From an uncultured Bacilli bacterium (GTDB lineage Bacteria; Bacillota_I; Bacilli_A; RFN20; CAG-449): a stretch of 64,000 nucleotides of DNA. Numbering within the stretch: position 1 is the first letter of the stretch; the number at the start of each line of letters is the position of its first letter. The stretch covers positions 11,290 to 75,289 of the forward strand of contig CANRDP010000001.1 of assembly GCA_947629415.1 (NCBI GenBank), read 5' to 3'. Of this stretch, positions 12,001 through 57,277 are shown piece after piece. A program made the position numbers and the translations under genes. The notes beneath the pieces were generated by a model that worked only from the letters and a program-made list of their open reading frames with translations, did no database searches and was not told the DNA's origin.

Positions 12001-12063
12001 GATTAATTGATATCTTTTTGTTCTGTTGTTCATAAATGCCATGAAAGGATTAGGAAAGAAAAA

Positions 12064-13161: not shown

Positions 13162-13179
13162 TAAAAACAAAGGAAAAAT

Positions 13180-19904: not shown

Positions 19905-19914
19905 CTCACCTTTT

Positions 19915-19934
19915 CCCTCTTGAAAAATAGAGGG
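19915..19934 (+). terminator. Weak terminator-like hairpin
   Basis: CCCTCT-tgaaaaat-AGAGGG with a poor U-tract. Confidence 0.25.
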
Positions 19935-19977
19935 ACCTCCTTTCTAGTTTACCAAACCCTTTTTGAAGATAGGATAA

Positions 19978-20005
19978 TTGACAAAAATGGTGGATATGCT
20001 AGAAT
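19978..20005 (+). promoter_or_regulatory. Promoter of the transporter and lyase operon
   Basis: TTGACA at 19978-19983, a 16-nt spacer, TAGAAT at 20000-20005. Confidence 0.45.
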
Positions 20006-20102: not shown

Positions 20103-20657
20103 ATGGATTTAAAAAAAGCAGACTTGATTATCTTTTCGTTTTTATCAATATTATTTGAATTTTTATCAAGCTATTTCTTCAATTTTCTGAATAGTGGATT
20201 TATCTTAAGCTTTTCCTTGTTGATTTTTCTTATTATGGCTCTTCGATGGGGAATAATGGGAATTGTACCTTTCTTACTTTCTGCGCTTCCATTAATTGCA
20301 ATGGAAAAGTCCATGGAATTATGGCAAAGCATTCTCTATTATCTTGTTGCGAATGTTTTCGCGGTAATTCCCATAGGTTGCTATACTCTTTTTTGCAAAG
20401 GGAAGAGTAGAAATGTGATGATTCAATCACCGGTATATCTTATTTTATTTTCTTTAGCGACATTTCTCAGTTTAGCTATTGGAAAATGGATTGCATGCAT
20501 CATCATAAATCAAGATGTTGCATCAATTGGAGGATATTTTATTTCTATGATATTTACGTATATTTTGACCATTCTTGTTTTATACGCATTATCAAGATTA
20601 AAAAATTCTATTGTAGCGGATATGGATTCTTATAGAAATGATGGAGAGGAGGTGTAA
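20103..20657 (+). CDS. Integral membrane protein, possibly a YesL/DUF624-like accessory to the CUT1 ABC transporter
   Basis: 184 aa with about 5 TM helices, first gene of the operon directly upstream of LplB/LplC-type permeases. The family assignment is a context-based guess. Confidence 0.3.
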   Translation: MDLKKADLIIFSFLSILFEFLSSYFFNFLNSGFILSFSLLIFLIMALRWGIMGIVPFLLSALPLIAMEKSMELWQSILYYLVANVFAVIPIGCYTLFCKGKSRNVMIQSPVYLILFSLATFLSLAIGKWIACIIINQDVASIGGYFISMIFTYILTILVLYALSRLKNSIVADMDSYRNDGEEV

Positions 20658-20659
20658 TC

Positions 20660-21625
20660 ATGAATGATATGATAAAGATGAGAGAACCCAAAGGTAAAAA
20701 AATTCTTAAAGGAATCAAAAAGGAATGGCAGTTATATCTTTTACTTATTCCCATTATTCTTTGGTTTTTGTTCTTTGCTTATAAACCCATGATTGGTTTA
20801 ATTGTCGCTTTTGAGCGTTTTGAACCTGCAGAAGGAATTTTCGGCAGTGATATGCGAGGTCTTTCGAACTTTGTCAACATTGTTACAGGTGTTAACCGAG
20901 AAGCATTTTGGGGAGCCTTTAGAAATACATTCATCATTAGTTTATATGGATTGGTTTTTGGATTTCCCATACCAATAATTTTGGCGCTTTTATTCAGCGA
21001 AATCAGAAGTGACGGATATCGAAAGATTTTGCAAACCATTACTTATCTTCCTCATTTTCTTTCTGAAGTTACCATTACGGGTATTGTCATTACCTTGGTC
21101 TATAGTGGAGTGAGTTCTACAGGTATTGTTGCTCAACTGCTTTATTCCCTGAATCTCGTACCTGCGGGAACGAAAATCATTGAAACGCCAAACTATTTTC
21201 GACCAATGTATATCATTACCGGTATCTGGAAAGAATCGGGATATAATTCTATCGTCTATTTTGCGGCAATCATGGGAATTTCCCCTGTCATGTATGAAGC
21301 CTTAAAAGTAGATGGTGGAAATAAATGGCAGGAAATCCGTTATGTTACGCTTCCTGGAATGGCCCCTACACTCATCATCATGATTATTATGAGAATAGGT
21401 CGTATGTTATCTGTCGGTTATGAACGAGTGTTGTTGCTCTATCATCCGAATACCTATGTTACCGCGGATGTTTTGTCTACTTTAGAGCAAAGAATCGGTA
21501 TTGGTACCGGTTCAAATCAAGGTCTTGGTTCGGCTATCGGTATTTTTAATTCCGTCATTGGTTTTGCTTTGGTTATCAGTGCCAACAAAATCTCACGACA
21601 GATTTCAAAGACCTCACTATGGTAA
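20660..21625 (+). CDS. Carbohydrate ABC transporter permease, LplB/YtcP/YesP family (CUT1)
   Basis: N-terminal ..YLLLIPIILWFLFFAYKPMIGLIVAFERF.. is typical of LplB. The EAA-like loop is EALKVDGGNKWQ. Confidence 0.75.
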   Translation: MNDMIKMREPKGKKILKGIKKEWQLYLLLIPIILWFLFFAYKPMIGLIVAFERFEPAEGIFGSDMRGLSNFVNIVTGVNREAFWGAFRNTFIISLYGLVFGFPIPIILALLFSEIRSDGYRKILQTITYLPHFLSEVTITGIVITLVYSGVSSTGIVAQLLYSLNLVPAGTKIIETPNYFRPMYIITGIWKESGYNSIVYFAAIMGISPVMYEALKVDGGNKWQEIRYVTLPGMAPTLIIMIIMRIGRMLSVGYERVLLLYHPNTYVTADVLSTLEQRIGIGTGSNQGLGSAIGIFNSVIGFALVISANKISRQISKTSLW

Positions 21626-21646
21626 GTTGAAAGATTGGAGGAAATT

Positions 21647-22516
21647 ATGGAAAGATCAAGTAAAAGTGAAATCGTATTCCGCGTTTTTTCGTACTTTTTT
21701 GTAACTATTTTTGCCATTTTATGTCTTTATCCCATCATCTATGCTTTCAGCGTATCTATCAGTGGAAAACTTGCCTATGAATCAGGACAGATTGTCTTTT
21801 TCCCAAAGGATTTGCAAATAGAGGCCTATCGAATTGTATTATTTGATAAAGGGTTCTGGATTTCTTATACGAACACACTATTCTATACCATTTTCGGTAC
21901 TGCATGGAGCATGTTCATCTCATTAACCGGTGCATATGTTCTTTCGAAAGACAAATTGTTAGGTAAAAGAACATGGAACTTTTTGCTCGTCTTTACAATG
22001 TGGTTCAGTGCAGGTATGATACCTCTTTATTTAAATTACATGGAATTGGGTGTGGATAACAAATGGGGTATGGTTATTGCTTTTGGTGTACAAGCTTATA
22101 ACATTATTCTTTTAAGAAATGCATTTTCGTCTGTACCGAAAGATATTGAAGAAGCGGCAAGGATGGATGGATCCAGTGAAATACAGATTTTTACAAAAAT
22201 TTATATGCCTATGTCGAAAGCGGCAATTGCCACTGTGACCTTGTTTTATGCAATTAGCCGTTGGAATGGTTATTATTGGTCCAGAATGCTGCTCAGAAAT
22301 TCACAAGAACAGCCACTTCAAGTGTATCTGAGAACGTTAATAGAAAATTATCAAAAACTTTATGATGAATCCGTTGTGGCTGGAAACCTGACTTATGCAG
22401 CCGATAGTTTGGTTTATGCGATCATCATCTGCTCTATCATTCCCGTGCTTGTAGTATATCCTTACATTCAAAAATACTTCACACGTGGCGTGAATTTAGG
22501 CGGAGTCAAAGGCTAG
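21647..22516 (+). CDS. Carbohydrate ABC transporter permease, LplC/YesQ family (CUT1)
   Basis: EAARMDGSSEIQIFTKIYMPMSKAAIATVTLFYAISRWNGYYW parallels the LplC EAA region. ATG 21647 lies 5 nt after GGAGG. Confidence 0.75.
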   Translation: MERSSKSEIVFRVFSYFFVTIFAILCLYPIIYAFSVSISGKLAYESGQIVFFPKDLQIEAYRIVLFDKGFWISYTNTLFYTIFGTAWSMFISLTGAYVLSKDKLLGKRTWNFLLVFTMWFSAGMIPLYLNYMELGVDNKWGMVIAFGVQAYNIILLRNAFSSVPKDIEEAARMDGSSEIQIFTKIYMPMSKAAIATVTLFYAISRWNGYYWSRMLLRNSQEQPLQVYLRTLIENYQKLYDESVVAGNLTYAADSLVYAIIICSIIPVLVVYPYIQKYFTRGVNLGGVKG

Positions 22517-22527
22517 AAAGGAAAACT

Positions 22528-24603
22528 ATGAAAAAAATATTTTTAGGAGCAATTGTTGCAGCATCGACTTTTATTTCGTTAGCATCCTGTAACAATTCCG
22601 AAACACCAAATAGTTCTACATCTATAAGTGTTGATCTTACAACAAATATTGAATTGAAACTAAATATGGCCTACGGTAATAAGGATCAAACCGTGACATA
22701 TCAAAAATCCAATCCATTAACATTACCAGATAATACAGTTATCACTCAGGGTAGTTTGAAACCCTTCTGGAGTTATCTTGGGAAACAAACCAATACGACG
22801 TTTAAAGATATTACCATTCAATCTCAAAAAGCTTCTGAAATGATTACGACCTCTGCTGCAACCGGATTTACCGATGCAGATATTTACGGAGGAAATAGTA
22901 TTGCAGAATCTTTAATGAGCTATGGTGTGCAAAAAAAATTCGCTAACTTAACCGAAATGATGAATCAAGGATTGATGCCTCATGTGAAGGCATATTTAGA
23001 TGCAAATCCAAGTTTCAAATCGGCTATTACAGCTTATGATGGAAATATCTATCATCTTCCGTATATTGCCGAAGTCGGTGAATTTGCTCGTGATTATCAC
23101 ATGCGTGAAAGCTGGGTAACCAGTTTATTAGATAATACGGGTGGAAAATCATATGATACCGATACAACGCTTACGACATATTATAAAGGATTTTGGGTTG
23201 GAAATAATGCACGTACAGGAAATAACGGCGGAACCGTCACTCCAAAAGAAGGCGTGAATATCACTAAAAAGACAAATCAGAATATCATTACTTTGATGAA
23301 TGCTTTGCCAAGTAAAAATGGACAAGCCTTGGCCGAATGTTTAAAAACATATATTCAGAATAATTATGATTATACAAAGGCAAGCGAACTCTATTTAGGA
23401 GAAAAAGCGGCTTACGATATCGATGAACTTGTCGCTTTATTCCGTGTTATCAAAGCAAATCCAAAATTCTTAACAAGTGGAAAAGCAGATACGGTATGGC
23501 CCTACTTTACAAGACAATCTTCTTATCGAGAAGAATTATTACGATTTGCCACATATTTCGGTGGCGTTCGAGTTCATGGATCCGACTCATATTCTGCACG
23601 ATGGGAAATCGATGCAAATGGTCAAATTCAATATACATATACAAAAGAAGAACTCTACAATATATTGAATTATTTATCCGATTGGAATGCCGAAGGATTG
23701 ATTTTTACCGATACTTATGATTCCAACAATAAGAATAATTTCCGTAATCAACTATATTTTGCCGACAATGCGGAAAATGCGAAATTTGGATTTATGACAT
23801 TTGATTTTACGGCTTCAACTACTGCGGATGGCGGAGCAAATGAACCGGCAAGAGATATCGTTGGTGTTTTGCCTCCTGTATCTAAAGTCAATGGTGTATG
23901 GCAGTATTACATTGATAATTCTCGTGTTATCAAACCGGATGGTTGGGCAATTTCCAATCAATCTAGCGATGCTAAGAAACAAAGAGCTGCCGTAATCTTT
24001 GATTACTTCTTCACAGAAGAGGGTGCGGTTTTACAAAATTATGGTCTACCTCAAATGTTGAAAACAGATGAAAAATTCACCGGTCCTGATGGGAAAGAAG
24101 TACCTGCATATAATGACTGGACCTTACAAACAACAAAAGAAATGGCCAATGGTGACTTATCTACGTTCCTTCGTAATTTTATCGGTGCATTGATGCCTGT
24201 GGGTTATGCTAAAGAAATCGGATTTGAATATCAATATACTTCAGAACGTGGATTCAATGCTTGGAAATTATTGCAAAATTCCACTACGAATATACCTTCT
24301 TATGCCGGTACCGGACTTCAAGGAGATAATCCGAATTACTATAAACTCATTCCACCTGTTTTCTCTTTAACGGAAAGACAAACGGAAACATTACAAAATG
24401 ATACGACAATCAATTCAGATAACTCCTTGTTTGAAGTAATCTTTAACATTATTCGATACAAAACTCGAAATGATGCTCCAGCAAGTGTCAAATTACCTGC
24501 AGATTACAATGCATACTATAAGTTATTCCAAGATGCCGGAATTGAAACTTATATCTCAACGTATCAAGCAGCATATCAAACAATGCAGGCATTAAATAAA
24601 TAA
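22528..24603 (+). CDS. Extracellular solute-binding lipoprotein of the ABC transporter (LplA/YesO-like, enlarged)
   Basis: Lipobox SLASC. The 691-aa family-1 sugar-binding protein follows the two permeases. Confidence 0.6.
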   Translation: MKKIFLGAIVAASTFISLASCNNSETPNSSTSISVDLTTNIELKLNMAYGNKDQTVTYQKSNPLTLPDNTVITQGSLKPFWSYLGKQTNTTFKDITIQSQKASEMITTSAATGFTDADIYGGNSIAESLMSYGVQKKFANLTEMMNQGLMPHVKAYLDANPSFKSAITAYDGNIYHLPYIAEVGEFARDYHMRESWVTSLLDNTGGKSYDTDTTLTTYYKGFWVGNNARTGNNGGTVTPKEGVNITKKTNQNIITLMNALPSKNGQALAECLKTYIQNNYDYTKASELYLGEKAAYDIDELVALFRVIKANPKFLTSGKADTVWPYFTRQSSYREELLRFATYFGGVRVHGSDSYSARWEIDANGQIQYTYTKEELYNILNYLSDWNAEGLIFTDTYDSNNKNNFRNQLYFADNAENAKFGFMTFDFTASTTADGGANEPARDIVGVLPPVSKVNGVWQYYIDNSRVIKPDGWAISNQSSDAKKQRAAVIFDYFFTEEGAVLQNYGLPQMLKTDEKFTGPDGKEVPAYNDWTLQTTKEMANGDLSTFLRNFIGALMPVGYAKEIGFEYQYTSERGFNAWKLLQNSTTNIPSYAGTGLQGDNPNYYKLIPPVFSLTERQTETLQNDTTINSDNSLFEVIFNIIRYKTRNDAPASVKLPADYNAYYKLFQDAGIETYISTYQAAYQTMQALNK

Positions 24604-24666: not shown

Positions 24667-25221
24667 ATGAAAAAATTAGTAAAATGTTTCAAATTTCAAA
24701 AAGTGATGTTTGTTGTCCAAATTTTGATGATCGTAATAACTTTTATTTCGGCCTTATCTTTCATGACACAATATGCCAATCTTTTTGGGCTCGAACTTCC
24801 ATTAAATCAAAGTATTATTGACTTTCATAATCATATGCAAAACTTCAATAAAACATGGGTATACCTTTCCATTGTAAGTCTTGTTTCTATTATTGCGATG
24901 TTTTTCTTAGAAACACAAAAAAGAGTTGCTGATCGTTTTGCTTTGATTGTTATGGGTATCTTTATTGCCATTGCTATTGCAACGGCTGTTTATGTTATTG
25001 TCAATACGATGAGTTTATTGCAAGAATATCAACAGGTAGATTTTACTTATATTTATTTGGAAGCTCCGGAATTGGCCGATTATCAATTGCAATTTGAAAC
25101 CTTTTATCTTGTTTTCATCGTTCATATCGTCGCCATTATAACTTTTATAGGATATTTTGTAAGTCTGTTACTTTCTCATATCCTTTATGTAAAAGAGAAA
25201 GGAGAACAAAATGCTCAGTAA
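24667..25221 (+). CDS. Hypothetical polytopic membrane protein
   Basis: 184 aa with 4-5 predicted TM helices and no recognisable motif. Confidence 0.4.
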   Translation: MKKLVKCFKFQKVMFVVQILMIVITFISALSFMTQYANLFGLELPLNQSIIDFHNHMQNFNKTWVYLSIVSLVSIIAMFFLETQKRVADRFALIVMGIFIAIAIATAVYVIVNTMSLLQEYQQVDFTYIYLEAPELADYQLQFETFYLVFIVHIVAIITFIGYFVSLLLSHILYVKEKGEQNAQ

Positions 25222-26008
25222 TCAAGCATTGGAGGAAAAGATCCTTAAGTGTCAGAAAACGATGGACGAAGCCAAAAAAACGGATGATGCCATTGCTTCT
25301 TCTTCTATAGAACATATAGATGAAACACTTCCCAGTCGGATTCAAAAAACTTTAAAGAAAATTCAAGAAAAATATGTATCTGCTAAAAGCGATAAACAAA
25401 AAGAGCAGGCTATGAGCACTTTTCAAATCTATAAGGATAAAGTGGCTTATCAGACAAAAAAAATTTTGGTAAATGCTCGATTTGATATGCATCGTTATGA
25501 AAGCATGAAGGAATGGAATCAACAAGAGGATGATGTTAAAGAAGAACAAAAAATAAATTTGACCTTTTATAAGGCCAATGTATCCAGTTATTGGCTTACT
25601 TTATCTGTTATCCTAGTTACTTTAGTTTATTTGGTTGAAATGTTATCCATGATGGAAAGAACTTTTTGGATTGGTATATTCATTCTCATCAATATCGCCT
25701 TTTTGCTCTTCTTATTTACAGCAGCGATTAAATTAAAGAATTATATTAAACTTTTCAGTTATCTTATATTTGCTTTTGGTATTTATACCATTCTGAGAAT
25801 AGGAGTCATTGTTCCTTTTATCTTGAATGTATCTCTTTTACCAACTGCGGATGATGCGAATTTTATGGCTAAAATAGTAATCATTCTGGTCAATATTTAT
25901 TCTTGTATTGTTTCTTTTTATATAGGTATTTCCTCTTTAAGAAAAGTGAAAAAACAAGAGCAATATATCAAAGAAGGTAAAATTACCTTCCATCAATTGT
26001 CAAAGTAG
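25211..26008 (+). CDS. Hypothetical membrane protein with a charged N-terminal cytoplasmic domain
   Basis: 265 aa: about 110 aa of K/E-rich soluble sequence, then about 4 TM helices. It overlaps the upstream gene by 11 nt. Confidence 0.4.
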   Translation: MLSNQALEEKILKCQKTMDEAKKTDDAIASSSIEHIDETLPSRIQKTLKKIQEKYVSAKSDKQKEQAMSTFQIYKDKVAYQTKKILVNARFDMHRYESMKEWNQQEDDVKEEQKINLTFYKANVSSYWLTLSVILVTLVYLVEMLSMMERTFWIGIFILINIAFLLFLFTAAIKLKNYIKLFSYLIFAFGIYTILRIGVIVPFILNVSLLPTADDANFMAKIVIILVNIYSCIVSFYIGISSLRKVKKQEQYIKEGKITFHQLSK

Positions 26009-26016
26009 GTAATCAT

Positions 26017-27111
26017 ATGGCAGAGATTATTTTAAAAAATGTAAATAAAATTTATCCGAATGGAGCACATGCTGTTTATGACTTCAATTTGGAAATCAAA
26101 GATGGTGAATTTATCGTTTTAGTCGGTCCTTCCGGGTGTGGTAAATCAACGACGCTTCGCATGATTGCCGGTTTAGAGGGAATCACGTCCGGAGATCTTT
26201 ATATTGATGGAGAAAGAGTCAATTTGTTGGCACCTATGGATCGCGATATCGCTATGGTCTTCCAAAACTATGCTCTTTATTACAATATGTCGGTTTACGA
26301 TAATATGGGCATTTCTTTGAAATTGCGTCATGAACAGAAGAATATTATTCATAAAACCGTCAAAGATATGGCGATGCGTTTTGATTTGACGGATTATTTG
26401 AATCGGTTGCCATCCAATTTATCCGGTGGTCAAAAACAGCGCGTAGCTTTAGGTCGTGCGGTCGTTCGCAATCCGAAAGTTTTCCTCATGGATGAGCCTT
26501 TAAGCAATTTGGATGCAAAACTTCGTGAAAAAACTAGAAGTGAAATTGTTAAACTGCAAAAAGAATTAAAGACTACAACGATTTATGTCACACATGATCA
26601 GGTGGAAGCTATGACAATGGCCGATCGCATTGTCGTGATGAATGAAGGATATATTCAGCAGATTGCTACGCCTTTTGATCTTTATAATTATCCGGACAAT
26701 ATGTTTGTTGCGGGATTTATCGGAATGCCCAATATTAATTTTATTGAAGGAACAGTTCACGATAATTATTTCCATTTTGATGGCATGAAAGTGGCTATTG
26801 ACGAAGCTTCCATTCCAAAATTAAAGGCCTATGAAAATAAAGAAGTCATCATGGGAATTCGTCCGGAGTATATCGAATTCGGCGAAAAGGCTTATGAATC
26901 TTTCCCGGATGCAATACTGGATCTTCCGATGATTCATAAAGAATTTCTCGGGGATGAATACTATGTGGAATTGAAACTTCCGTCACAGGAAATTACCGCG
27001 CGTATCAGCAGTGAATTTCATCTGACTTCCCAAAACTTAAAAGTGGTATTCAATATGAAGAAAGTTCACTTCTTTGATAAAGAAACAACGAAGAGAATTG
27101 TGGAGGAGTAA
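26017..27111 (+). CDS. Sugar ABC transporter ATP-binding protein, MsmK/MsmX/MalK type (copy 1)
   Basis: Walker A GPSGCGKST, signature LSGGQKQRVALGRA, Walker B FLMDEPLSNLD, and a C-terminal MalK-like regulatory/TOBE domain. Confidence 0.85.
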   Translation: MAEIILKNVNKIYPNGAHAVYDFNLEIKDGEFIVLVGPSGCGKSTTLRMIAGLEGITSGDLYIDGERVNLLAPMDRDIAMVFQNYALYYNMSVYDNMGISLKLRHEQKNIIHKTVKDMAMRFDLTDYLNRLPSNLSGGQKQRVALGRAVVRNPKVFLMDEPLSNLDAKLREKTRSEIVKLQKELKTTTIYVTHDQVEAMTMADRIVVMNEGYIQQIATPFDLYNYPDNMFVAGFIGMPNINFIEGTVHDNYFHFDGMKVAIDEASIPKLKAYENKEVIMGIRPEYIEFGEKAYESFPDAILDLPMIHKEFLGDEYYVELKLPSQEITARISSEFHLTSQNLKVVFNMKKVHFFDKETTKRIVEE

Positions 27112-27113
27112 GT

Positions 27114-27635
27114 ATGGGAAATAAATTTTTAATTACATTGAAAAAAGTGTTGAAAACTCCAAGACTCATGTCAAAATATATCATTTGTTTTACTGCGGTT
27201 ATGCACCTTGTGATTTCTCACATTCAGATTCAATCCATTGCTCTTTTGAACGATCAAATTTGTGGTTTTACTATGTTTTTTTTCATACTTTTTGGATTTG
27301 CTTGTTTATTCAATGCTATACGAATGAATCAAATCACTTTGAAAAAATGGATTATTTCTCTTTTAATGCTTTGTATCACCATGGGATTTGGAATCTGGTT
27401 AGTGATAATTTATTTTTCTTCTTTGGGCACGCAAGTGAATCTTGAACTCAATGAAATTCTTCCGGGAATTGTAGTTTCCATTATAGTACTTGTACTCTAT
27501 TTGATTGGCATGATTGAGCTTATTGTCGGTTATTTTGTGGAAAGAAAACAAGTAAAAGAAGTTCTTTATATCGAAGATGAAATCGATTCGGAAGAAGAAT
27601 TCGAATCAGAGGAAAAAACGCAAGGAGAAAATTAA
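27114..27635 (+). CDS. Hypothetical membrane protein with an acidic C-terminal tail
   Basis: 173 aa with about 4 TM helices, ending in EDEIDSEEEFESEEK. Confidence 0.4.
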   Translation: MGNKFLITLKKVLKTPRLMSKYIICFTAVMHLVISHIQIQSIALLNDQICGFTMFFFILFGFACLFNAIRMNQITLKKWIISLLMLCITMGFGIWLVIIYFSSLGTQVNLELNEILPGIVVSIIVLVLYLIGMIELIVGYFVERKQVKEVLYIEDEIDSEEEFESEEKTQGEN

Positions 27636-27638
27636 TTC

Positions 27639-28169
27639 ATGGAGAAAAAAGATGAAAATAAGAAACCGTTTTTATCTCGATTCAGCGATCGTACAAAGAT
27701 AGCTTTTTTAAGGTTTTGGTTTGTTGGTCTCATTTATTATTTGGTCGGATGGGGTACCGATTTGGGTTTAAATGAAGATCCGGTGGATTTCATCTTTGTT
27801 TTAGCTCTCATCAGCAGTGCGGCAATAATTATTATTTTCAATCCCATCTGCCATTATATGTTTGATATTGAAAGAAATGGTATCATTATGAATAAAGAAA
27901 TTCAAAACAGAAAAATCTATCAGGGAGTTCTTTTTAATCTATTTGAGTTTGTTCGTTGTCTTCTGGTAACCGTACTCATTTATCTCACCTATGAATTAAT
28001 CAATATGGCTTTTATTCATTTGACCAATGCGGATTATCTCATTTTACAGGGAGAGCCGATTTTATATGGTGTATTCTTTACTTTATATTATGAAATATTT
28101 ACATCGATAAGAAATAAGATTTTGTTCTTATTTCAATCAAAAGTAAAACAAAAAAAGGAAAAGAAATGA
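27639..28169 (+). CDS. Hypothetical membrane protein
   Basis: 176 aa with about 4 TM helices. Confidence 0.4.
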   Translation: MEKKDENKKPFLSRFSDRTKIAFLRFWFVGLIYYLVGWGTDLGLNEDPVDFIFVLALISSAAIIIIFNPICHYMFDIERNGIIMNKEIQNRKIYQGVLFNLFEFVRCLLVTVLIYLTYELINMAFIHLTNADYLILQGEPILYGVFFTLYYEIFTSIRNKILFLFQSKVKQKKEKK

Positions 28170-28170
28170 T

Positions 28171-30228
28171 ATGGATCAATATATCTTTATTCCATCATTA
28201 ACGAAATTAAAAAAAGAGATTCGTTTAGAAAAAAAAGCACAATATCGCGCTTTGCTTGAAGAAGCAAATCGCTTGTTTTGTTTACCTTTATACGTAGAAC
28301 CTCCTAAAAAGTCAACGACATATATTGCTCAGGCTATGTGTAATTTGACTTTATGCTATCGATTGAGTGAAGATGAAAAATATCTTCAAGAGGCTTTGAG
28401 AATTATTGAAACCGTCCTTTCTTATCCTTACTGGGGAAACGCGCATTTGGTAAATGTTGATTTGAGTGCTTCCTTTCTGCTTTTCGGATTGTCCTTAAGC
28501 TATCATTATATAAAAGAAGATTTATCCGAGAAACAACAGAAAAGAATCGAAGAAAAATTACTTTATCAGGCACAATTGATGTTTGATTACAGCAAGGAAC
28601 ATGAGGATTCCTGGCCTCGTCACTATTTTCAAAATCACAACTGGATTAATTTTACGGGATTAGCTATGGTCGGTTATGTTCTGCAAGAAAAATATCCAAA
28701 AGTAGCCATTTATAAAGAAGCTGCCAAAGAAAATTTTCATAAAGTATTTTCTTATTTACCGGAAGATGGTTCCGATTATGAAGGAGCAACTTATTGGAGA
28801 TATGGTGTATTATGGCTATATATTTATGCTTATCTTTTAAAGGAACAAGAGGGAATTGATTATTTTAAAACATCTGGATTTTTAAAAAATACCTTCGATT
28901 ATCGTTTGTACCAAAGTGCTTCGAATCTTAACAAGCAATTGAATTTTGGCGATTGTCATGATTTATATAGTTCTCATAGTGTTGCGATGTATTATTTGAT
29001 TGCCGGAATATATCATAACGGATACGCACAAAAATTGGGTAATGAAATTTTCACACATTATCTTTATGAAGAACAATATAATAGTAAAATCAAACCGGGT
29101 ATTCTTCCCGAAGCTTATTTGACTTTACTTTGGTATCAACCAAGAATTCAAGAAAAGGATTTGGATGCATTACCAAAAGTGAAATATTTCAAAGATTTAG
29201 GTCTTATTTGTGTTCGGGAAGGATTTAAAAAGCAAGATAAAGTGTTTTCCATTAAATGTTCGTATCCCGGAGGTAAAAAACAATGGTACAAAGGAATAGA
29301 ACATTATCAAAAAACAGGGCAATGGATTCTTTCCTTAGCACATCATCATCCGGATAATTTATCTTATATTTTCACGGGTGGGGACGATTATTACGCTTGT
29401 GATGAAGGTTATAATCGTATGATTGAACCAAGCGATCATAATGTGCTTTTAGTAGATCATCTTTATAGCGATGTCATGCAAACAAATGATGTTTACATGC
29501 GAAGTATTCAAAAGCGCTTAGAAGAAACACCTTTTTATGATGCAAAAAAATATCGTGGAACAATAAGATATTTCTTTATGCACGAAGATATCGTCGCTTT
29601 TCAAATGGAAAATCATGCTATTTATCCGTTATCTTTAAAAATGAAAGAAGTTTCTCGGACGGTTCTTTTAAAAGGACTTCATTGGATTGTAATGATGGAT
29701 ACGTTTGATAGTTTCTGTCCTCATATTTATGAAAGCGTTTTAAATCAATTCCATCCTATGAAAGAAGTAGGGGAAGGATATCAAATTTTCACTTTGGATG
29801 AAGAAATGTATTATTATGTTTTCTCTTCCGATGCATTGGAAATGAATCATACCATTCAAGAAATTAAAAGTATTATGACAACACAAGAACCAGATGTATT
29901 CACAAGAAATATGTTTCATCGATACATCGCTTCTACAAAAGAAAAAAAGAAAAAACATATGAGAATAGAGGTTTTTTCTACCGAAAAACTTCAACCGCGA
30001 TGGCAGAAAAACACCTTCATACTTACGGAAAATGAAAGAATTCTATTTAAGAAGAATTATGACTTCGATTTTGACGGAAAGATGCTATATCTCCGTTATG
30101 AATCAAATTATCTCAAGGAATTGGTTTTACTTGAAGGAACATTTGTTTCATATAAAGGTCAGGAACTGATTCGTCTACCTAAAAAAGGAAGTGCTAAGAA
30201 AGGAGATTTTTATGCAATACTTAAATGA
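28171..30228 (+). CDS. Heparinase II/III-like polysaccharide lyase (PL12/15/17/21 superfamily), cytoplasmic
   Basis: 685 aa with no signal peptide. It has alpha/alpha-toroid N-H and aromatic motifs (QNHNWINF, GATYWRYG) and a C-terminal Hepar_II_III-type H-x-H-x-D motif (LAHHHPDNLSYIF). Confidence 0.5.
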   Translation: MDQYIFIPSLTKLKKEIRLEKKAQYRALLEEANRLFCLPLYVEPPKKSTTYIAQAMCNLTLCYRLSEDEKYLQEALRIIETVLSYPYWGNAHLVNVDLSASFLLFGLSLSYHYIKEDLSEKQQKRIEEKLLYQAQLMFDYSKEHEDSWPRHYFQNHNWINFTGLAMVGYVLQEKYPKVAIYKEAAKENFHKVFSYLPEDGSDYEGATYWRYGVLWLYIYAYLLKEQEGIDYFKTSGFLKNTFDYRLYQSASNLNKQLNFGDCHDLYSSHSVAMYYLIAGIYHNGYAQKLGNEIFTHYLYEEQYNSKIKPGILPEAYLTLLWYQPRIQEKDLDALPKVKYFKDLGLICVREGFKKQDKVFSIKCSYPGGKKQWYKGIEHYQKTGQWILSLAHHHPDNLSYIFTGGDDYYACDEGYNRMIEPSDHNVLLVDHLYSDVMQTNDVYMRSIQKRLEETPFYDAKKYRGTIRYFFMHEDIVAFQMENHAIYPLSLKMKEVSRTVLLKGLHWIVMMDTFDSFCPHIYESVLNQFHPMKEVGEGYQIFTLDEEMYYYVFSSDALEMNHTIQEIKSIMTTQEPDVFTRNMFHRYIASTKEKKKKHMRIEVFSTEKLQPRWQKNTFILTENERILFKKNYDFDFDGKMLYLRYESNYLKELVLLEGTFVSYKGQELIRLPKKGSAKKGDFYAILK

Positions 30229-32113
30229 ACATTATAAGGAAGCTATCTTAAAAAATCCAAAATATCTTCAGGCAATTGAAAAAATGAAAAAGGAAGTTCG
30301 TGAATTTTATGATACATTTTACGATGATCCGAAGGTTATCAGTGTCTGGGGACATAATTATTTTTGTGATTATGATGGGGGACGTTTGATTTTCGATATT
30401 CATAAACCTCATGAACATAAATGTTCTGTCTGTGGAAAAGTTTTTTCTAATGAAATTTATGATGGAGTTTGGGTGTACTTTTATCGTAATCAAGCGATTT
30501 TAAGTGCGTGGAAGGCTGCAGGAATTTATGCTTTTACTCATGAGACACTTTATCTTACGATTGCGAAACATCTTCTTTCTTTCTATGCGGATCATTATAA
30601 AGAATTCGTTTTGCACAACAAAGAAGGAAAAATATATTCTTCTTATGAAGAAATGAAATGGGGATGTGGAAGAATCCTGCCTCAGGGATTAAATGAATCC
30701 ATTATTTGTATTCGCATGATTCAGGCATTGGAAATCATTAAAAATGATGTAAGTCCGGAATTTCTCAATGAATTATATGAAAAAATGTTTTCCGAAATGG
30801 TACTCTTGTTCAAACCTCAGATTGATCAAATTCACAATATCCGATGTTGGAACAACTGTGCTTTAGGCCTTATTGGTTTATTTTTCCATAAAGAAGAGGT
30901 CATCCATTTTGTCTTTCATGGTCCTTACAATATCCGTCGTCAAATAGACGAAGGAGTAACGGAAGATGGTTTCTGGTATGAAGGATCCATTCATTATAAT
31001 TTTTTCACTTTAGAAGGTATTACTCCTCTTTTGCTTTTCAGTGAAATTTATCATTATGATTTTGGTGCAAAGGAAAAAGAAATAGTACATAAAATGTTTA
31101 TCCATGCTTATCATTATGCCTTTGATAATCAGGTTCTTCCCAATCCGAATGACGGGTGGCCAAATATCAATTTAAAGACATATAGTTATATCTATCATAT
31201 GGCAAGTCGTGTTTTCGGAGAATATAGCGATGTGGGAAATCTTTTGAAAAACATTGAAAATCACCCGTTGCCACGAACAACATTACCTCTTTCCAAACCT
31301 TATTATATCGATAATGAAATTGCTTATGAAAGATTACTTTTGAATACAGATTATGATTTTGACGTATATGAAAAAGTCATTCCCGTGGCGAAGAATTTTC
31401 CCAAATCGAATTTTGCTACATTGCGAAACGATAACATCAATGTCTTTGTCAAATACGGACTCAATGGTCCTTCTCATTCACACCCCGATTTGATTAATAT
31501 GGAAATTATGTATAAAAATCGGATGATCAGTCGGGATTTATCCAATTGCGGTTATCGTGCAAAATTATGTGATGAATGGCATCGTACATCTTTAGCTCAC
31601 AATGTTGTCATTCGAAACGGAGAGAATATTCCTTCTGTTTCGCCTGGAAAAACACTTGAATTTCAGCCGACAAAAATATGTGCAAAAGCTGAGAATGTTT
31701 ATCCTCAGGTAGATGCCATCCGTACGATTGAAATTGATTCCTGTCATATCATGGATTGCTATGAAATTCATGCAGCAGAAGAAGCTACATTTGATTATGT
31801 TTTTCATTTGGAAAGTGATTTTGAAATCAGTTCCTTACCTTTGGAAAAAGCAACATTGGGTTATGAAAAGAACGGATATCAACATGTTTTGGAAACTTAT
31901 AGAGTCAAAGATTGTCCTTCCAAACTCACTTTTTTTGCCCGAGCAAAAGATCTCGTATTGACTTTGGAATTTGAAACTCAAAATAAAGAGGTCTTTATAT
32001 TGAAAACTATGGATAATCCCGTCAATAAGACGAGAACAACTATTTTATTAAGAGAAAAAGGAACAACCATTCTATATCAAATGAAATTAACTATAAAGGA
32101 GGAAAAAGAATGA
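30212..32113 (+). CDS. Heparinase II/III-like polysaccharide lyase, second cytoplasmic paralog
   Basis: 633 aa with ..NIRCWNNCALGL.., ..GFWYEGSIHYNFF.. and ..GPSHSHPDLINMEI... The N-terminus has a Cys/His cluster (CDYDGG...HKPHEHKCSVCGK). ATG 30212 has the RBS AAAGGAG. Confidence 0.5.
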   Translation: MQYLNEHYKEAILKNPKYLQAIEKMKKEVREFYDTFYDDPKVISVWGHNYFCDYDGGRLIFDIHKPHEHKCSVCGKVFSNEIYDGVWVYFYRNQAILSAWKAAGIYAFTHETLYLTIAKHLLSFYADHYKEFVLHNKEGKIYSSYEEMKWGCGRILPQGLNESIICIRMIQALEIIKNDVSPEFLNELYEKMFSEMVLLFKPQIDQIHNIRCWNNCALGLIGLFFHKEEVIHFVFHGPYNIRRQIDEGVTEDGFWYEGSIHYNFFTLEGITPLLLFSEIYHYDFGAKEKEIVHKMFIHAYHYAFDNQVLPNPNDGWPNINLKTYSYIYHMASRVFGEYSDVGNLLKNIENHPLPRTTLPLSKPYYIDNEIAYERLLLNTDYDFDVYEKVIPVAKNFPKSNFATLRNDNINVFVKYGLNGPSHSHPDLINMEIMYKNRMISRDLSNCGYRAKLCDEWHRTSLAHNVVIRNGENIPSVSPGKTLEFQPTKICAKAENVYPQVDAIRTIEIDSCHIMDCYEIHAAEEATFDYVFHLESDFEISSLPLEKATLGYEKNGYQHVLETYRVKDCPSKLTFFARAKDLVLTLEFETQNKEVFILKTMDNPVNKTRTTILLREKGTTILYQMKLTIKEEKE

Positions 32114-32448
32114 AAGAAATTCAAAATTACTTTTTAGACAAAGATATTGTCTTTAAAGATGCTGATCCGGGTGTGCAAAGAAAAATCTTGGCACATAACG
32201 AATCTTTAATGGTTTGCCGTTTGCATTTTGAAAAGGGAGCTGTCGGTGCTTTGCATCAGCATCCTCATACACAATGCACCTATATTATTTCGGGGAAATT
32301 CGAATTCAATATTGGAGGCAAAAAAATGATTTTGGGGCCTGGCGATTCTACTTATAAAGAACCCGACGTGATTCACGGCGCCGTTTGTCTTGAAGAGGGA
32401 GAATTGTTAGATATATTTACACCAGAAAGAAAAGACTTTTTGAAATAG
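32110..32448 (+). CDS. Cupin-2 protein, KdgF-like unsaturated-uronate linearising enzyme
   Basis: 112 aa with the cupin metal motifs HQHPHTQ and PDVIHGAV. Its size and its context among lyases and an SDR match KdgF. Confidence 0.5.
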   Translation: MKEIQNYFLDKDIVFKDADPGVQRKILAHNESLMVCRLHFEKGAVGALHQHPHTQCTYIISGKFEFNIGGKKMILGPGDSTYKEPDVIHGAVCLEEGELLDIFTPERKDFLK

Positions 32449-32459
32449 GAGGAGATGAA

Positions 32460-33209
32460 ATGAAAAAAGTTGTAATTATTACCGGTGGGACCGGCGGCAT
32501 CGGTTCGGCGACTGCTTTGGAATTGGCAAAACAGGGATATTCCATTGCATTAAACGGAATCGATGATGAAGCAGCAGTTCAAGTGATGAATGACTTGAAA
32601 AACATGGGTGCGGATGCCAAGTATTATCATTTTGATGTCACGGATGAAGCAGCTGTGAATGAAAATGTTAATCAAATTGCAAAAGATTTTGGCCAGATCG
32701 ATGCATTGATTAATTGTGCAGGTGGATTAGGAGGAAGATCGCGTTTTGAAGTGATGACGACAGAATTCTATCGTAAAGTGATGGCTTTGAACTTAGATAG
32801 TGCTTTCTTTATGTCACGTGCTTGTATTCCGTATCTGAAAAAAAGCGAGAATCCTTCCATTATCAATTTTTCATCGAATGCCGGATGGAATGCTGGTGGT
32901 CCGGGAGCGGGAATGTACGGAACAAGTAAAGGTGCAATTATCACTTTCACAAGAGCGTTAGCGAAAGATTTAGCGGAATATCACATCCGTTGCAATGCGG
33001 TCGCTCCGGGAACGATTGATACACCTTTTCATGATGCCACGAAGAAAAATAATCCTGCATTATTTGAATCTTGGAAAAACAACATCTTACTAAAGCGCTT
33101 TGGAAAACCTTCGGAAGTGGCTACGGTTATTGCCTTCTTATTAAGTGAAAACGCATCTTTCATTACCGGAGAGATTGTGCAAATTAATGGAGGACAGGAT
33201 TTACTCTAA
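32460..33209 (+). CDS. SDR-family oxidoreductase (KduD/DehR-like 2-keto-3-deoxy sugar acid reductase)
   Basis: NAD(P)-binding motif TGGTGGIGSA, catalytic YGTSK (YxxxK) and NCAGG. Confidence 0.6.
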   Translation: MKKVVIITGGTGGIGSATALELAKQGYSIALNGIDDEAAVQVMNDLKNMGADAKYYHFDVTDEAAVNENVNQIAKDFGQIDALINCAGGLGGRSRFEVMTTEFYRKVMALNLDSAFFMSRACIPYLKKSENPSIINFSSNAGWNAGGPGAGMYGTSKGAIITFTRALAKDLAEYHIRCNAVAPGTIDTPFHDATKKNNPALFESWKNNILLKRFGKPSEVATVIAFLLSENASFITGEIVQINGGQDLL

Positions 33210-33210
33210 A

Positions 33211-34377
33211 ATGGATGTCTTTGATATCGTAAAATTGGATCCGGTGAACTATTACATTCTTTATTCCTTAAAAGAATTAAAAGCGATAAAGGCAAAGATT
33301 TCTTCTAAAGAATTAAAAGAATTTCAAGATATTTTTCAACCTTATGAAGTTCTTTATGAAAAGGAAAAAAGAAGTGTGGTGGAAAAAAAGATTTTCTTAA
33401 AAGGTATCGATAAAAAAGATTATGTTTCTTTAGCAACATATTTTTGGCCAAATAAAGAAACAGTGGATGGATTGCCTTATGTGTCCTATGATGGTAAGGC
33501 AAATCCTGAAGGCGATCTCTATGACAAACAGAATTTAAGACGATTGGCATTTATTACTTATTATCAGGCAATTTTATATTTTCTCAGCGAAGACGAAAAA
33601 TATCTTCGGATGATTGAAAAGAATTGGACATACTACTTCTTCGATGATATTACGGGAATGAATCCGAATATGGATCATGCACAACTGATTCGGGGAGTAA
33701 ACCTGGGACGAGGCATAGGAATGATTGATTTTACAGCGAATGTTTCATATGCCTTATATATGCTGAATCTCTTAAAGAAAGAAAAGAAATTATCGGAGAG
33801 TTTTCTTACAAAACTCACCGCCTGGTTAGAAAAATTCTATCACTGGTATCAATATTCACGAATTGCTCTGGAAGAAAAATATGCGGAAAATAATCATGGT
33901 ATCTTTTATGATTTCGGGTTATGTGTACTGATTGATTTTCTGGAGAAAAAAGACGAAATGTATCCATTAGTTATCCAGATGATTGAACTGAGGATGAAAC
34001 ATCAGATAAAAAAAGATCGGATGCCTTTGGAACTTCAAAGAACAAAAGCAAAAAGTTACGCTTTGATGGGAATTAAAGGTATCTATGATTTCTCTTTCAT
34101 CAGTTCATCGTATGGGTATAATCTTTATACCTTAAATGAATGGTATGATAAAAAAGCGGATATTGACATTCGCTTAGTAGAAGATTTGCTTTATCGACAG
34201 TTGGTGTCACAAGAAGTAACTTTTCCATATGAACAGATAACACCATTTGATGTTGCGACCCTATTACCATTGCTCTATGAAAAGAATAAATGGGATGTAA
34301 ATTCATTGAAAAACATGATAAAATTAAAATGTTTAATGAAAATGGATTGGCAATATCGCTTGCTGAAACATTTGTAG
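33211..34377 (+). CDS. Alginate-lyase-family (AlgL/PL5- or PL17 N-domain-like) alpha/alpha-toroid protein, cytoplasmic
   Basis: 389 aa. AENNHGIFY resembles the PL5 NNHSYW motif and the protein is aromatic-rich. ATG 33211 has the RBS GGAGGA, so the track start at 33145 was rejected. Confidence 0.35.
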   Translation: MDVFDIVKLDPVNYYILYSLKELKAIKAKISSKELKEFQDIFQPYEVLYEKEKRSVVEKKIFLKGIDKKDYVSLATYFWPNKETVDGLPYVSYDGKANPEGDLYDKQNLRRLAFITYYQAILYFLSEDEKYLRMIEKNWTYYFFDDITGMNPNMDHAQLIRGVNLGRGIGMIDFTANVSYALYMLNLLKKEKKLSESFLTKLTAWLEKFYHWYQYSRIALEEKYAENNHGIFYDFGLCVLIDFLEKKDEMYPLVIQMIELRMKHQIKKDRMPLELQRTKAKSYALMGIKGIYDFSFISSSYGYNLYTLNEWYDKKADIDIRLVEDLLYRQLVSQEVTFPYEQITPFDVATLLPLLYEKNKWDVNSLKNMIKLKCLMKMDWQYRLLKHL

Positions 34378-34385
34378 GAGGAGTT

Positions 34386-37018: not shown

Positions 37019-37029
37019 GAGGATAAAAA

Positions 37030-39135: not shown

Positions 39136-39147
39136 ATTAGAAAGTCA

Positions 39148-39178
39148 TATCCGGATGGATATTTTGTTCATCCGGATA
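39148..39178 (+). terminator. Hairpin after the 37030 gene
   Basis: TATCCGGATG-gatattttgtt-CATCCGGATA with a weak U-tract. Confidence 0.35.
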
Positions 39179-39259
39179 GACTTTTCCATATGGAATATCT
39201 TTCTATGTTACTAAACATTTGCTTGACATAGAAAGATATGTACAGGAAAGGAAAATTGC

Positions 39260-41719: not shown

Positions 41720-41728
41720 GGAGAGTAT

Positions 41729-54882: not shown

Positions 54883-55041
54883 GAAGAGGAAGATAGTTTT
54901 CTATCTTCTTTTTTCTTTTTGAAGTTGAAAAAAGAATTTGTGTAATTATATAAAAATATTTGAAACAAAAATAGAAATTAGCTAAAATAGTACAAAGTAT
55001 TAGTTGAATACTTTTTGTTTTTATGTACGAAGGAGATATGT

Positions 55042-56250: not shown

Positions 56251-56263
56251 GGAGGGAGAAAAA

Positions 56264-57265: not shown

Positions 57266-57277
57266 GAGAAAGAGATT

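What the first reader, a model, noticed from the sequence alone, without database searches (positions are those of the whole stretch)
24667..28169. Four tightly packed unknown small membrane proteins bracketing the MsmK ATPase
Between the binding-protein gene and the first cytoplasmic lyase lie five genes with 2-10 nt spacing or overlaps: TM protein (184 aa), TM protein with a 110-aa charged N-domain (265 aa), the MsmK ATPase, TM protein with an acidic tail (173 aa) and TM protein (176 aa). None shows a transporter, kinase or protease motif, and they are not similar to each other. The orphan ATPase is normally placed next to its permeases or elsewhere in the genome, so its insertion among four unknown membrane proteins suggests an uncharacterised membrane-embedded accessory module. 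It could be a sensing, gating or ECF-like subcomplex that uses or regulates MsmK.
Basis: inference. Interest (0 to 1): 0.5.

Follow-up and report, generated by a model that had tools for sequence, protein, structure and literature searches.

The report
Extra membrane subunits of uronate importer
Four small membrane proteins with no match in any library searched are always encoded with an alginate-type sugar-uptake pump in gut bacteria, and in one cultured species one of them is fused to the pump's motor protein, so this well-studied kind of pump probably has extra, unstudied parts.

Summary
At 24667-28169 four tightly packed genes for 4-helix membrane proteins (184, 265, 173 and 176 aa) bracket an MsmK/MsmX-type ABC ATPase. 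None matches Pfam, NCBIfam or any PDB sequence or fold, and they are unrelated to each other. A fifth unknown membrane protein (20103-20657) opens the operon.

The surrounding transporter is a close relative of the Sphingomonas alginate importer AlgM1M2SS/AlgQ. It sits in a locus for cleaving and metabolising uronate oligosaccharides.

In every informative locus fetched, the four families lie with this permease/binding-protein set. The loci come from Acholeplasmatales, other Bacilli, probable Clostridia from human gut and a Sphaerochaetaceae genome, with G+C from 27 to 53%, and include alginate-type and pectin-type loci.

Two variants are telling:
- In cultured Acholeplasma granularum the second protein is fused to the ATPase.
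- In another lineage the four genes interleave with the permease and binding-protein genes, with no ATPase nearby.

Best reading (about 0.5): they are auxiliary membrane subunits of this type I ABC importer, one of them tethered to the ATPase. An ECF-like module is rejected. A separate second translocator or a regulatory role is not excluded. Function is inferred, not shown. New variant of a known kind; interest about 0.6.

The parts
19978..20005 (+). Promoter-like site (TTGACA-16 nt-TAGAAT with TG), just after a terminator-like hairpin at 19914-19935. Probable start of the operon.
   Evidence: Consensus match only (11 of 12).
20103..20657 (+). TM0: fifth unknown polytopic membrane protein (184 aa), first gene of the operon. 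Invariant RWG motif.
   Evidence: No Pfam or NCBIfam hit. Homologues occupy the same position in L007, L009, L014, L016, L017, L097, L098, L101 and L103. Absent in the human-gut type (MatE instead) and in L096.
20660..21625 (+). Permease 1 (LplB-like), homologue of AlgM1.
   Evidence: BPD_transp_1. PDB 4tqu_M AlgM1, E 9.5e-85.
21635..22516 (+). Permease 2 (LplC-like). Gene callers start it at 21647.
   Evidence: BPD_transp_1.
22528..24603 (+). Large lipoprotein substrate-binding protein (691 aa), AlgQ1/AlgQ2-like.
   Evidence: Lipobox-like N-terminus. PDB AlgQ1 E 4e-32, AlgQ2 E 4e-31. No Pfam hit.
24667..25221 (+). TM1: 184-aa, 4-TM, N-in/C-in protein with two conserved ~30-aa outward-facing loops (motifs FMT.Y..LFG, FH..Q.FN, Y..lDF).
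   Evidence: No family match.
25211..26008 (+). TM2: 265 aa. Variable helical cytoplasmic N-domain (1-~120) plus a conserved 4-TM bundle (124-254), with near-invariant N161, F169, Y178 and R196.
   Evidence: AF2 model pLDDT 97. 75 clusters in 1.84 billion representatives. Fused to the ATPase in A. granularum.
26017..27111 (+). MsmK/MsmX/UgpC-type ABC ATPase with a C-terminal OB/TOBE regulatory domain.
   Evidence: PDB MsmX E 1e-114, AlgS E 4e-89.
27114..27635 (+). TM4: 173-aa, 4-TM protein (motifs HL, DQICG.MF, LF...R). The acidic C-tail is lineage-specific.
   Evidence: No family match.
27639..28169 (+). TM5: 176-aa, 4-TM protein. The most conserved stretch is the cytoplasmic loop MFDIERNG..N, which has low confidence in the monomer model.
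28171..30228 (+). Cytoplasmic DSE-like_N (DUF4962) lyase-like protein. Always follows TM5 in alginate-type loci.
   Evidence: PDB PL35, DUF4962 and PL15 relatives.
30212..32113 (+). Heparinase II/III-like protein, PL17-like oligoalginate-lyase relative.
32110..35171 (+). Rest of the pathway: KdgF-like cupin (32110-32448), SDR (32460-33209), Alginate_lyase-domain protein (33211-34377) and IclR regulator (34386-35171).
42731..43873 (+). Second, stand-alone MsmK-like ATPase (380 aa, 53% identical to the nested one).

Best explanation
The four small proteins (TM1, TM2, TM4, TM5; often with TM0) are dedicated auxiliary membrane subunits of a type I ABC importer. That importer takes up uronate-containing oligosaccharides and is homologous to the Sphingomonas alginate importer AlgM1M2SS/AlgQ.

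Shown:
- The core (two permeases, a lipoprotein binding protein, an MsmK-type ATPase) is AlgM1/AlgQ/AlgS-like.
- In every informative locus fetched via one of the small proteins, the four families lie with that core, across orders and two phyla, in alginate-type and pectin-type loci.
- TM2 is covalently fused to the ATPase in Acholeplasma granularum.
- All four are N-in/C-in 4-helix proteins with conserved cytoplasmic and outward-facing loops.

Inferred:
- They form a membrane scaffold around the permease dimer.
- TM2 holds the ATPase at the membrane through its cytoplasmic C-terminal tail.
- The conserved cytoplasmic loop of TM5 contacts the ATPase or the permeases.
- The outward-facing loops of TM1 contact the unusually large, lipid-anchored binding protein.

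In this reading they assemble, stabilise or tune the importer and are not the substrate path itself.
For: Core identity: LplB vs AlgM1 E 9.5e-85, binding protein vs AlgQ1/2 E ~1e-32, ATPase vs MsmX/AlgS, and downstream PL17-, PL15- and PL35-like enzymes, cupin and SDR.

Synteny: the order permease-permease-SBP-TM1-TM2-ATPase-TM4-TM5 is the same in:
- L007/L013, L009, L012, L014 and L015;
- 41 of the 48 metagenome loci that are long enough. The other 7 are explained by merged ORFs in two loci (L066, a low-coverage contig, and L092) or by contigs whose homology breaks off inside the block;
- a Sphaerochaetaceae genome, L096;
- Acholeplasmatales genomes L097 and L098;
- two more divergent loci: the pectin-type L101, and L100, whose enzyme genes are not held.

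G+C ranges from 27 to 53%.

Fusion: P0127 (WP_245587882.1, A. granularum, 645 aa) is the TM2 domain plus a ~40-aa linker plus the full ATPase, in an otherwise identical locus.

Linkage to the importer, not only to the ATPase: L103 has TM0-LplB-LplC-TM1-TM2-TM4-SBP-TM5 and no ATPase gene in 14.2 kb.

Translational coupling: overlaps or gaps of 1-8 nt.

Topology and conserved loops.

Internal control: the Opp ABC operon in the same window has no such small genes.
Against: - No physical interaction is shown for the window's proteins. The only direct link is one fusion in one species.
- Every related locus was fetched with a TM protein as query. This shows that the TM genes come with the importer, not that such importers always need them.
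- The Sphingomonas core is a heterotetramer that transports oligoalginates in proteoliposomes with AlgQ2 and ATP alone (PMC9751261), so the extra proteins are not intrinsically required for this transporter type.
- The window carries a second MsmK paralogue, which leaves room for the nested ATPase to serve something else.
- Fold searches give only generic four-helix bundles.
- No multimer prediction could be run.
Confidence: 0.5

Rival explanations
1. The four proteins and the nested ATPase form a second, binding-protein-independent ABC-type translocator. TM1+TM2 and TM4+TM5 would act as unconventional split membrane domains, for example for a monomeric uronate, a counter-ion or an exported product. 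The AlgM-like permeases would then be energised by the generic MsmK paralogue.
For: - The ATPase gene is nested between the two pairs, not next to the permeases.
- The TM2::ATPase fusion has the layout of an ABC half-transporter.
- The window holds a second MsmK-like ATPase that could serve the permeases.
- There are near-invariant polar residues: R196 lies about two-thirds of the way along the third membrane helix and N161 in the second helix of TM2, and E139 lies at the outward-facing start of the fourth helix of TM5.
Against: - In L103 the TM genes are interleaved with the permease and SBP genes and no ATPase is nearby.
- The compact cassettes in Sphaerochaetaceae and in human-gut contigs carry a single ATPase next to permeases that need one.
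- There is no similarity to any ABC membrane-domain fold and no coupling-helix motif.
- The two pairs are not homologous to each other, unlike the usual ABC membrane domains.
Confidence: 0.15
2. They are functionally tied to uronate-oligosaccharide use but are not stoichiometric transporter subunits. They could be membrane regulators of the ATPase (acting on it in the way EIIA-Glc or MalT act on MalK), membrane sensors feeding into the locus regulator, or organisers that hold the lipoprotein binding protein and surface lyases near the importer in wall-less cells.
For: - TM2 has a variable helical cytoplasmic N-domain that comes and goes between lineages.
- MsmK-type ATPases carry a C-terminal regulatory domain.
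- Many carriers are wall-less Acholeplasmatales whose binding protein and lyases are lipoproteins.
- TM1 has conserved outward-facing loops.
Against: - The loci already have a soluble regulator: IclR in the alginate-type loci, AraC in the pectin-type locus.
- The module is kept in cassettes that lack surface lyases.
- It is also kept in a Sphaerochaetaceae genome and in human-gut loci of 51-53% G+C, which are unlikely to be Acholeplasmatales.
- There is no sensor, kinase or signalling domain.
Confidence: 0.2
3. They are hitch-hiking or decaying ORFs with no role in the locus.
For: No recognisable domains. They are less conserved than the transporter core: 39-60% versus 73-91% identity among three relatives.
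Against: All four families keep length, topology and specific motifs from 27 to 53% G+C and across two phyla. Start and stop coupling is tight. One of them is fused in frame to an essential transporter component.
Confidence: 0.03

Closest known systems
AlgM1M2SS/AlgQ1-AlgQ2 alginate ABC importer of Sphingomonas sp. A1 (PDB 4TQU; CUT1-type, type I importer)
   Same: The permease, binding protein and ATPase are clear sequence homologues. Both sit next to cytoplasmic oligoalginate-lyase-type enzymes. The substrate class is the same (acidic uronate oligosaccharides).
   Different: The Sphingomonas transporter is a heterotetramer plus a soluble periplasmic binding protein and works in proteoliposomes without other subunits (PMC9751261). 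Here four to five extra membrane proteins are co-inherited, and the binding protein is a 660-776-aa protein, lipoprotein-like in the window.
DUF624 membrane proteins (YesL, YesV, YteU) in Bacillus subtilis rhamnogalacturonan ABC clusters. This is recalled from general knowledge and was not retrieved here.
   Same: Small polytopic membrane proteins of unknown function, encoded inside Firmicute sugar ABC operons for uronate-containing oligosaccharides.
   Different: No member of the five families hits the Pfam DUF624 model even at E<=10. DUF624 is a single family, whereas this is a fixed set of four unrelated families.
TMD0 domains of eukaryotic ABC transporters (TAP1/TAP2, TAPL, SUR1, MRP1). 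General knowledge.
   Different: There is no homology. TMD0 is fused to the membrane domain of exporters, not to the ATPase of a type I importer. In the window the bundle is a separate protein, and there are four different ones.
ECF transporters (EcfT scaffold, S-component, small CbiN-type subunits)
   Same: Several small membrane subunits that depend on an ABC ATPase and are encoded around it.
   Different: There is no EcfT/CbiQ or S-component match. The ATPase is MsmK-type with an OB/TOBE domain: it scores 154 bits against a 315-bit cut-off for ECF_ATPase_1. Canonical permeases and a binding protein are present.
Tetraspan auxiliary subunits of eukaryotic membrane complexes (TARP gamma, sarcospan, MS4A/FceRI-beta, claudin fold)
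   Different: The resemblance is generic to up-down four-helix bundles; soluble bundles score as high or higher, and Foldseek finds nothing significant.

Membership tests
Type I ABC importer, CUT1 / AlgM1M2SS-like (the core of the locus) | Two BPD_transp_1 permeases homologous to AlgM1/AlgM2 | tested here: met
   PF00528 on both. AlgM1 E 9.5e-85.
Type I ABC importer, CUT1 / AlgM1M2SS-like (the core of the locus) | MalK/MsmK-type ATPase with a C-terminal OB/TOBE regulatory domain | tested here: met
   ABC_tran + OB_MalK. UgpC subfamily 440 bits against a 432-bit cut-off. MsmX E 1e-114, AlgS E 4e-89.
Type I ABC importer, CUT1 / AlgM1M2SS-like (the core of the locus) | Extracytoplasmic substrate-binding protein of the AlgQ type | tested here: met
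   AlgQ1/AlgQ2 E ~1e-32 over residues 293-605. Lipoprotein-like N-terminus.
Type I ABC importer, CUT1 / AlgM1M2SS-like (the core of the locus) | Canonical composition: two permeases, two ATPases and a binding protein, with no further membrane subunits | tested here: not met
   Four (often five) extra conserved membrane-protein genes are co-inherited with the core in all informative loci. That they are physical subunits is inferred, not shown.
ECF transporter module | EcfT/CbiQ scaffold subunit and a recognisable S-component | tested here: not met
   No such Pfam or NCBIfam hit for any of the five families, even at E<=10 over divergent members. There is one isolated ECF_trnsprt hit at E 0.035 in 1 of 13 TM4 members.
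ECF transporter module | EcfA-type ATPase (~280 aa, no OB/TOBE domain) | tested here: not met
   ECF_ATPase_1 scores 154 bits against a 315-bit cut-off. The protein has an OB_MalK domain.
DUF624 (YesL/YteU-type) membrane proteins | Match to Pfam PF04854 | tested here: not met
   Not among the hits at E<=10 for 56 sequences of the five families.
Type VII ABC (MacB/FtsX/LolCE) four-helix membrane domains | FtsX domain, with a large extracytoplasmic domain between helices 1 and 2 | tested here: not met
   No FtsX hit. Loops are at most about 35 aa. A genuine FtsX protein elsewhere in the window (46714-47952) is detected by the same search.
TMD0-like accessory bundle covalently attached to an ABC component | Extra membrane bundle fused to a core ABC polypeptide | tested here: inconclusive
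   Separate genes in the window. Fused to the ATPase in A. granularum. This is an analogy only; homology to TMD0 is not detectable.
New families TM1, TM2, TM4, TM5 (defined here) | Profile match plus a position within an AlgM-like permease/SBP locus | tested here: met
   HMM E-values from 1e-8 to 1e-66 in all loci. The gene in the TM4 position of the two most divergent loci (L100, L101) is only weakly TM4-like: hhalign probability 21%.

The most novel reading that the evidence does not exclude
The four proteins are obligatory parts of a previously unrecognised architecture of type I ABC importer. A 16-helix hetero-oligomeric membrane assembly would be tethered to the MsmK-type ATPase (through TM2) and dock the lipid-anchored binding protein. 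Alternatively, it would provide a second, binding-protein-independent translocation path powered by the same ATPase. Either case would be a new structural class of ABC importer, found so far in Acholeplasmatales and other Bacilli, human-gut metagenome loci and a Sphaerochaetaceae genome.
Probability: 0.2. Interest if true: 0.85.

Novelty: new variant of a known kind. Interest (0 to 1): 0.6.

Why it matters
Type I ABC importers are textbook machines made of two permeases, two ATPases and a binding protein. A 2026 review of bacterial glycoside transporters does not use the word 'accessory' at all and uses 'auxiliary' only for SusE/SusF (PMC13543919).

A fixed set of four unrelated small membrane proteins that travels with an alginate/pectin-oligosaccharide importer across phyla, and that is once fused to its ATPase, implies an unstudied layer of assembly, regulation or transport in this family.

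It also matters for the gut:
- The module is common in metagenomes. 80 loci were kept out of 106 hits, mostly from human-gut samples.
- One Acholeplasmatales TM5 variant was seen on at least 1000 contigs.
- It therefore bears on how little-studied wall-less gut bacteria feed on dietary uronate polysaccharides.

A cultured carrier, Acholeplasma granularum, makes it directly testable.

Tried and rejected
- A concatenated query of the four proteins in the word-indexed protein search returned nothing, not even the proteins themselves. The candidate list was saturated, and one search was wasted.
- Single-sequence and multi-member scans against Pfam and NCBIfam gave only scattered sub-threshold hits: Bestrophin-like in 3 of 11 TM1 members, DUF6057 in 5 of 13 TM4 members, Acyl_transf_3 in 3 of 13, DUF373 in 3 of 11 TM2 members. 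None is consistent or near its cut-off, so all were rejected.
- PDB profile searches gave nothing below E 0.05.
The DNA reference contains the stop codon, and paired alignments with locus-derived sequences are not accepted. No interface prediction was therefore possible.
- Within-species SNPs (contigs 99.6-100% identical) were too few for dN/dS.
- The idea that TM1/TM2 and TM4/TM5 are duplicated halves was rejected (hhalign below 3%).
- Seven metagenome loci that seemed to lack some TM genes are merged ORFs (two loci) or contigs whose homology breaks off inside the block at different points, not real variants.
- Literature searches for accessory subunits of MsmK/CUT1 systems, for the assembly accession, and for Acholeplasmatales alginate use found nothing relevant.


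Full report
**1. What is in the sequence**

| Name used here | Coordinates | Length |
|---|---|---|
| TM1 | 24667-25221 | 184 aa |
| TM2 | 25211-26008 | 265 aa |
| ABC ATPase | 26017-27111 | 364 aa |
| TM4 | 27114-27635 | 173 aa |
| TM5 | 27639-28169 | 176 aa |

A cytoplasmic lyase-like gene follows at 28171. The junctions are an 11-nt overlap, then gaps of 8, 2, 3 and 1 nt. Most genes have an AG-rich ribosome-binding sequence.

A strong promoter-like site (19978-20005) and a terminator-like hairpin just before it suggest that the operon starts upstream of a fifth small membrane protein.

Each of TM1, TM2, TM4 and TM5 has four hydrophobic helices. Lys+Arg is concentrated in the N-terminus, the second loop and the C-terminus, and nearly absent from loops 1 and 3. 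All four are therefore N-in/C-in.

**2. Are they known families, or related to each other?**

No to both.

- Pfam and NCBIfam give nothing near threshold for the window proteins.
- Scans of 7-14 divergent members of each of the five families at E<=10 show no consistent family.
- Family profiles find no PDB sequence below E 0.05.
- Profile-profile comparison among the five families gives probabilities below 3%.

**3. What surrounds them**

The ATPase is MsmK/MsmX/UgpC-type with an OB/TOBE tail. The rest of the transporter is a close relative of the Sphingomonas alginate importer:

- Upstream permease vs AlgM1: E 9.5e-85.
- The 691-aa lipoprotein vs AlgQ1/AlgQ2: E ~1e-32. It has no Pfam hit.

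Downstream come the following:
- a DUF4962/DSE-like protein (PL35/PL15 relatives);
- a PL17-like heparinase II/III protein;
- a KdgF-like cupin and an SDR;
- an Alginate_lyase-domain protein;
- an IclR regulator.

Upstream lie a GH88 and a PL6-like (chondroitinase B domain) lipoprotein. This is a locus for taking up and cleaving unsaturated uronate oligosaccharides, most likely alginate-type.

The window also holds a second, stand-alone MsmK paralogue at 42731-43873, 53% identical to the nested one.

**4. Conservation and synteny**

*Homologue counts.*
- TM5 alone found 7 homologues; a profile found 33.
- An exhaustive phmmer of TM2 against 1.84 billion cluster representatives found only 75 clusters. 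The families are real but small.

*Gene order.* Every context that could be read shows the same order: permease-permease-SBP-TM1-TM2-ATPase-TM4-TM5-lyases.
- Three close relatives, in which the small proteins are 39-60% identical while permeases are 82-91% and the ATPase 73-82%.
- L012, L014 and the distant L015.
- 80 metagenome loci fetched with a TM4 profile, mostly from human gut.
- A Sphaerochaetaceae genome (L096).
- Acholeplasmatales genomes.

*The metagenome loci in detail.* My HMM annotation finds all four families in 41 of the 48 loci that are long enough. The other 7 are not real variants. Two have merged ORFs (L066, a low-coverage contig, and L092). Five are contigs whose homology to a reference breaks off at different points inside the block.

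*Range.* G+C runs from 27 to 53%. The human-gut type carries IclR and a MatE gene in place of TM0, no surface lyases, and has a relaxase gene nearby. The cassette looks self-contained and possibly mobile.

**5. Three informative variants**

(a) *Fusion in a cultured species.* Acholeplasma granularum is a cultured Mollicute (assembly GCA_000526235.1). There TM2 is fused in frame through a ~40-aa linker to the ATPase, giving one 645-aa protein (WP_245587882.1) with a duplicated C-terminal regulatory domain. TM0, TM1, TM4 and TM5 sit in their usual places. This is Rosetta-stone evidence that TM2 works physically with the ATPase, and it fits the predicted cytoplasmic C-terminus of TM2.

(b) *No ATPase nearby.* In L103 the order is TM0-LplB-LplC-TM1-TM2-TM4-SBP-TM5, with no ATPase gene anywhere in the 14.2 kb held. 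The small genes therefore travel with the permeases and binding protein, not only with the ATPase.

(c) *Pectin-type locus.* L101 has TM0, TM1, TM2, the ATPase and TM5 in a pectin-type locus (UxaA, UxaC, pectinesterase, GH28, GH88/105). L100 is a similarly divergent locus, but no enzyme genes are held for it. In both, a larger protein that is only weakly TM4-like occupies the fourth position. The module thus goes with a subfamily of importers for acidic oligosaccharides, not with particular lyases.

**6. Sequence features**

The N-terminal charged domain of TM2 and the acidic tail of TM4 are lineage-specific. The conserved features are:

- *TM1:* motifs in both outward-facing loops.
- *TM2:* near-invariant N161, F169, Y178 and R196 in the bundle, over 66 sequences.
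- *TM4:* HL, DQICG.MF and LF...R.
- *TM5:* a basic amphipathic N-terminus, the cytoplasmic loop MFDIERNG..N and GEP. That loop is its most conserved stretch and the least confident part of the monomer model.

**7. Interpretation**

The best-supported reading is that these are auxiliary membrane subunits of an AlgM1M2SS-like importer. TM2 tethers the ATPase, and the others pack around the permeases and possibly contact the unusually large, lipid-anchored binding protein.

Shown:
- homology of the core to AlgM1M2SS/AlgQ;
- strict co-inheritance of the four families with that core;
- topology;
- the fusion.

Inferred:
- that a complex exists;
- what each subunit does in it.

The model Sphingomonas transporter is a heterotetramer. 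It transports oligoalginates in proteoliposomes with only AlgQ2 and ATP (PMC9751261). The extra proteins are therefore an add-on of these lineages, not a requirement of the fold.

Rivals not excluded:
- a second translocator powered by the nested ATPase; the second MsmK paralogue and the half-transporter-like fusion speak for it, and L103 and the lack of any ABC membrane-domain resemblance speak against it;
- a regulatory or organising role.

An ECF-like module is rejected on every defining feature tested.

**8. Limits**

- All related loci were fetched with a small protein as query. The converse question, how many AlgM-like importers lack the small proteins, is untested.
- No multimer prediction was possible.
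- The organism of the window is inferred from relatives to be an uncultured gut member of the Acholeplasmatales/Bacilli lineage. UGA is used as a stop codon.

**9. Verdict**

- Observation: confirmed.
- Interpretation: partly supported.
- Novelty: a new variant of a known kind of system, with five protein families absent from Pfam, NCBIfam and the PDB.
- Interest: about 0.6. The function is unknown, but the pattern is robust and unexpected for type I ABC importers, and it is testable in a cultured organism.

Noticed in passing
window 20103-20657: A fifth unknown polytopic membrane protein (TM0, 184 aa, invariant RWG motif) opens the operon, directly upstream of the permeases. It is conserved in most Bacilli/Acholeplasmatales-type loci, including the pectin-type one. 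A MatE gene replaces it in the human-gut type, and it is absent in the Sphaerochaetaceae locus.
   Followed up: partly
window 42731-43873: A second, stand-alone MsmK-like ATPase (380 aa, 53% identical to the nested one) lies at the far end of the polysaccharide locus, after beta-helix proteins and a GDSL esterase.
   Followed up: partly
L098 10001-11938 (Acholeplasma granularum, JAFR01000006.1): Natural in-frame fusion of the TM2 membrane domain to the ATPase, plus a duplicated C-terminal regulatory domain (645 aa, WP_245587882.1).
   Followed up: yes
L103 804-7291: Permuted module TM0-LplB-LplC-TM1-TM2-TM4-SBP-TM5 with no ATPase gene in 14.2 kb. An SSF-family transporter and a single DSE/heparinase fusion protein lie downstream.
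   Followed up: partly
L101 1-19035 (GCA_965353495.1): The same small-protein module sits in a pectin-type locus (UxaA, UxaC, pectinesterase, GH28, GH88/105, AraC regulator). A 345-aa multi-helix protein stands where TM4 normally is.
   Followed up: partly
L021 1078-19591 and L069 (human gut metagenome contigs, G+C 51-52%): Compact cassette: IclR, MatE, importer + four TM genes, two lyase-like genes, SDR and cupin, with no surface lyases. In L021 a MobA/VirD2-type relaxase gene lies a few kb downstream, so the cassette is possibly on a mobile element.
   Followed up: partly
window 22528-24603: The 691-aa binding protein has no Pfam hit at all, although it is clearly AlgQ1/AlgQ2-like over residues 293-605. 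It and its relatives (660-776 aa) are about 200 aa longer than AlgQ.
   Followed up: partly
window 16370-17890: A 506-aa protein with no Pfam match, translationally coupled between the GH88 gene and the PL6-like lipoprotein gene. It is conserved in L002, L007 and L009.
   Followed up: no
window 12007-14910, 35246-42727: The locus is flanked by two GDSL-type esterases, a GLUG-motif protein, two large right-handed beta-helix proteins and another GDSL esterase. It may therefore target an esterified (for example acetylated) uronan.
   Followed up: no
window 52573-59420: An Opp-type ABC importer operon (SBP_bac_5, two permeases, two ATPases) in the same window has no small membrane genes. It serves as an internal control.
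   Followed up: yes
window 28167-28169 and 30226-30228: TGA is used as a stop codon for TM5 and for the DSE-like gene, so the organism uses the standard code. This fits Acholeplasmatales, not Mycoplasma-type Mollicutes, despite Mollicute-like lipoprotein features (aBig_2 domain).
   Followed up: partly
L026, L068, L080, L081, L084, L090: These are human-gut contigs 97-99.97% identical to a reference locus. Their homology stops at different points inside TM2, the ATPase or TM4. They are probably chimeric assemblies or insertions.
   Followed up: partly
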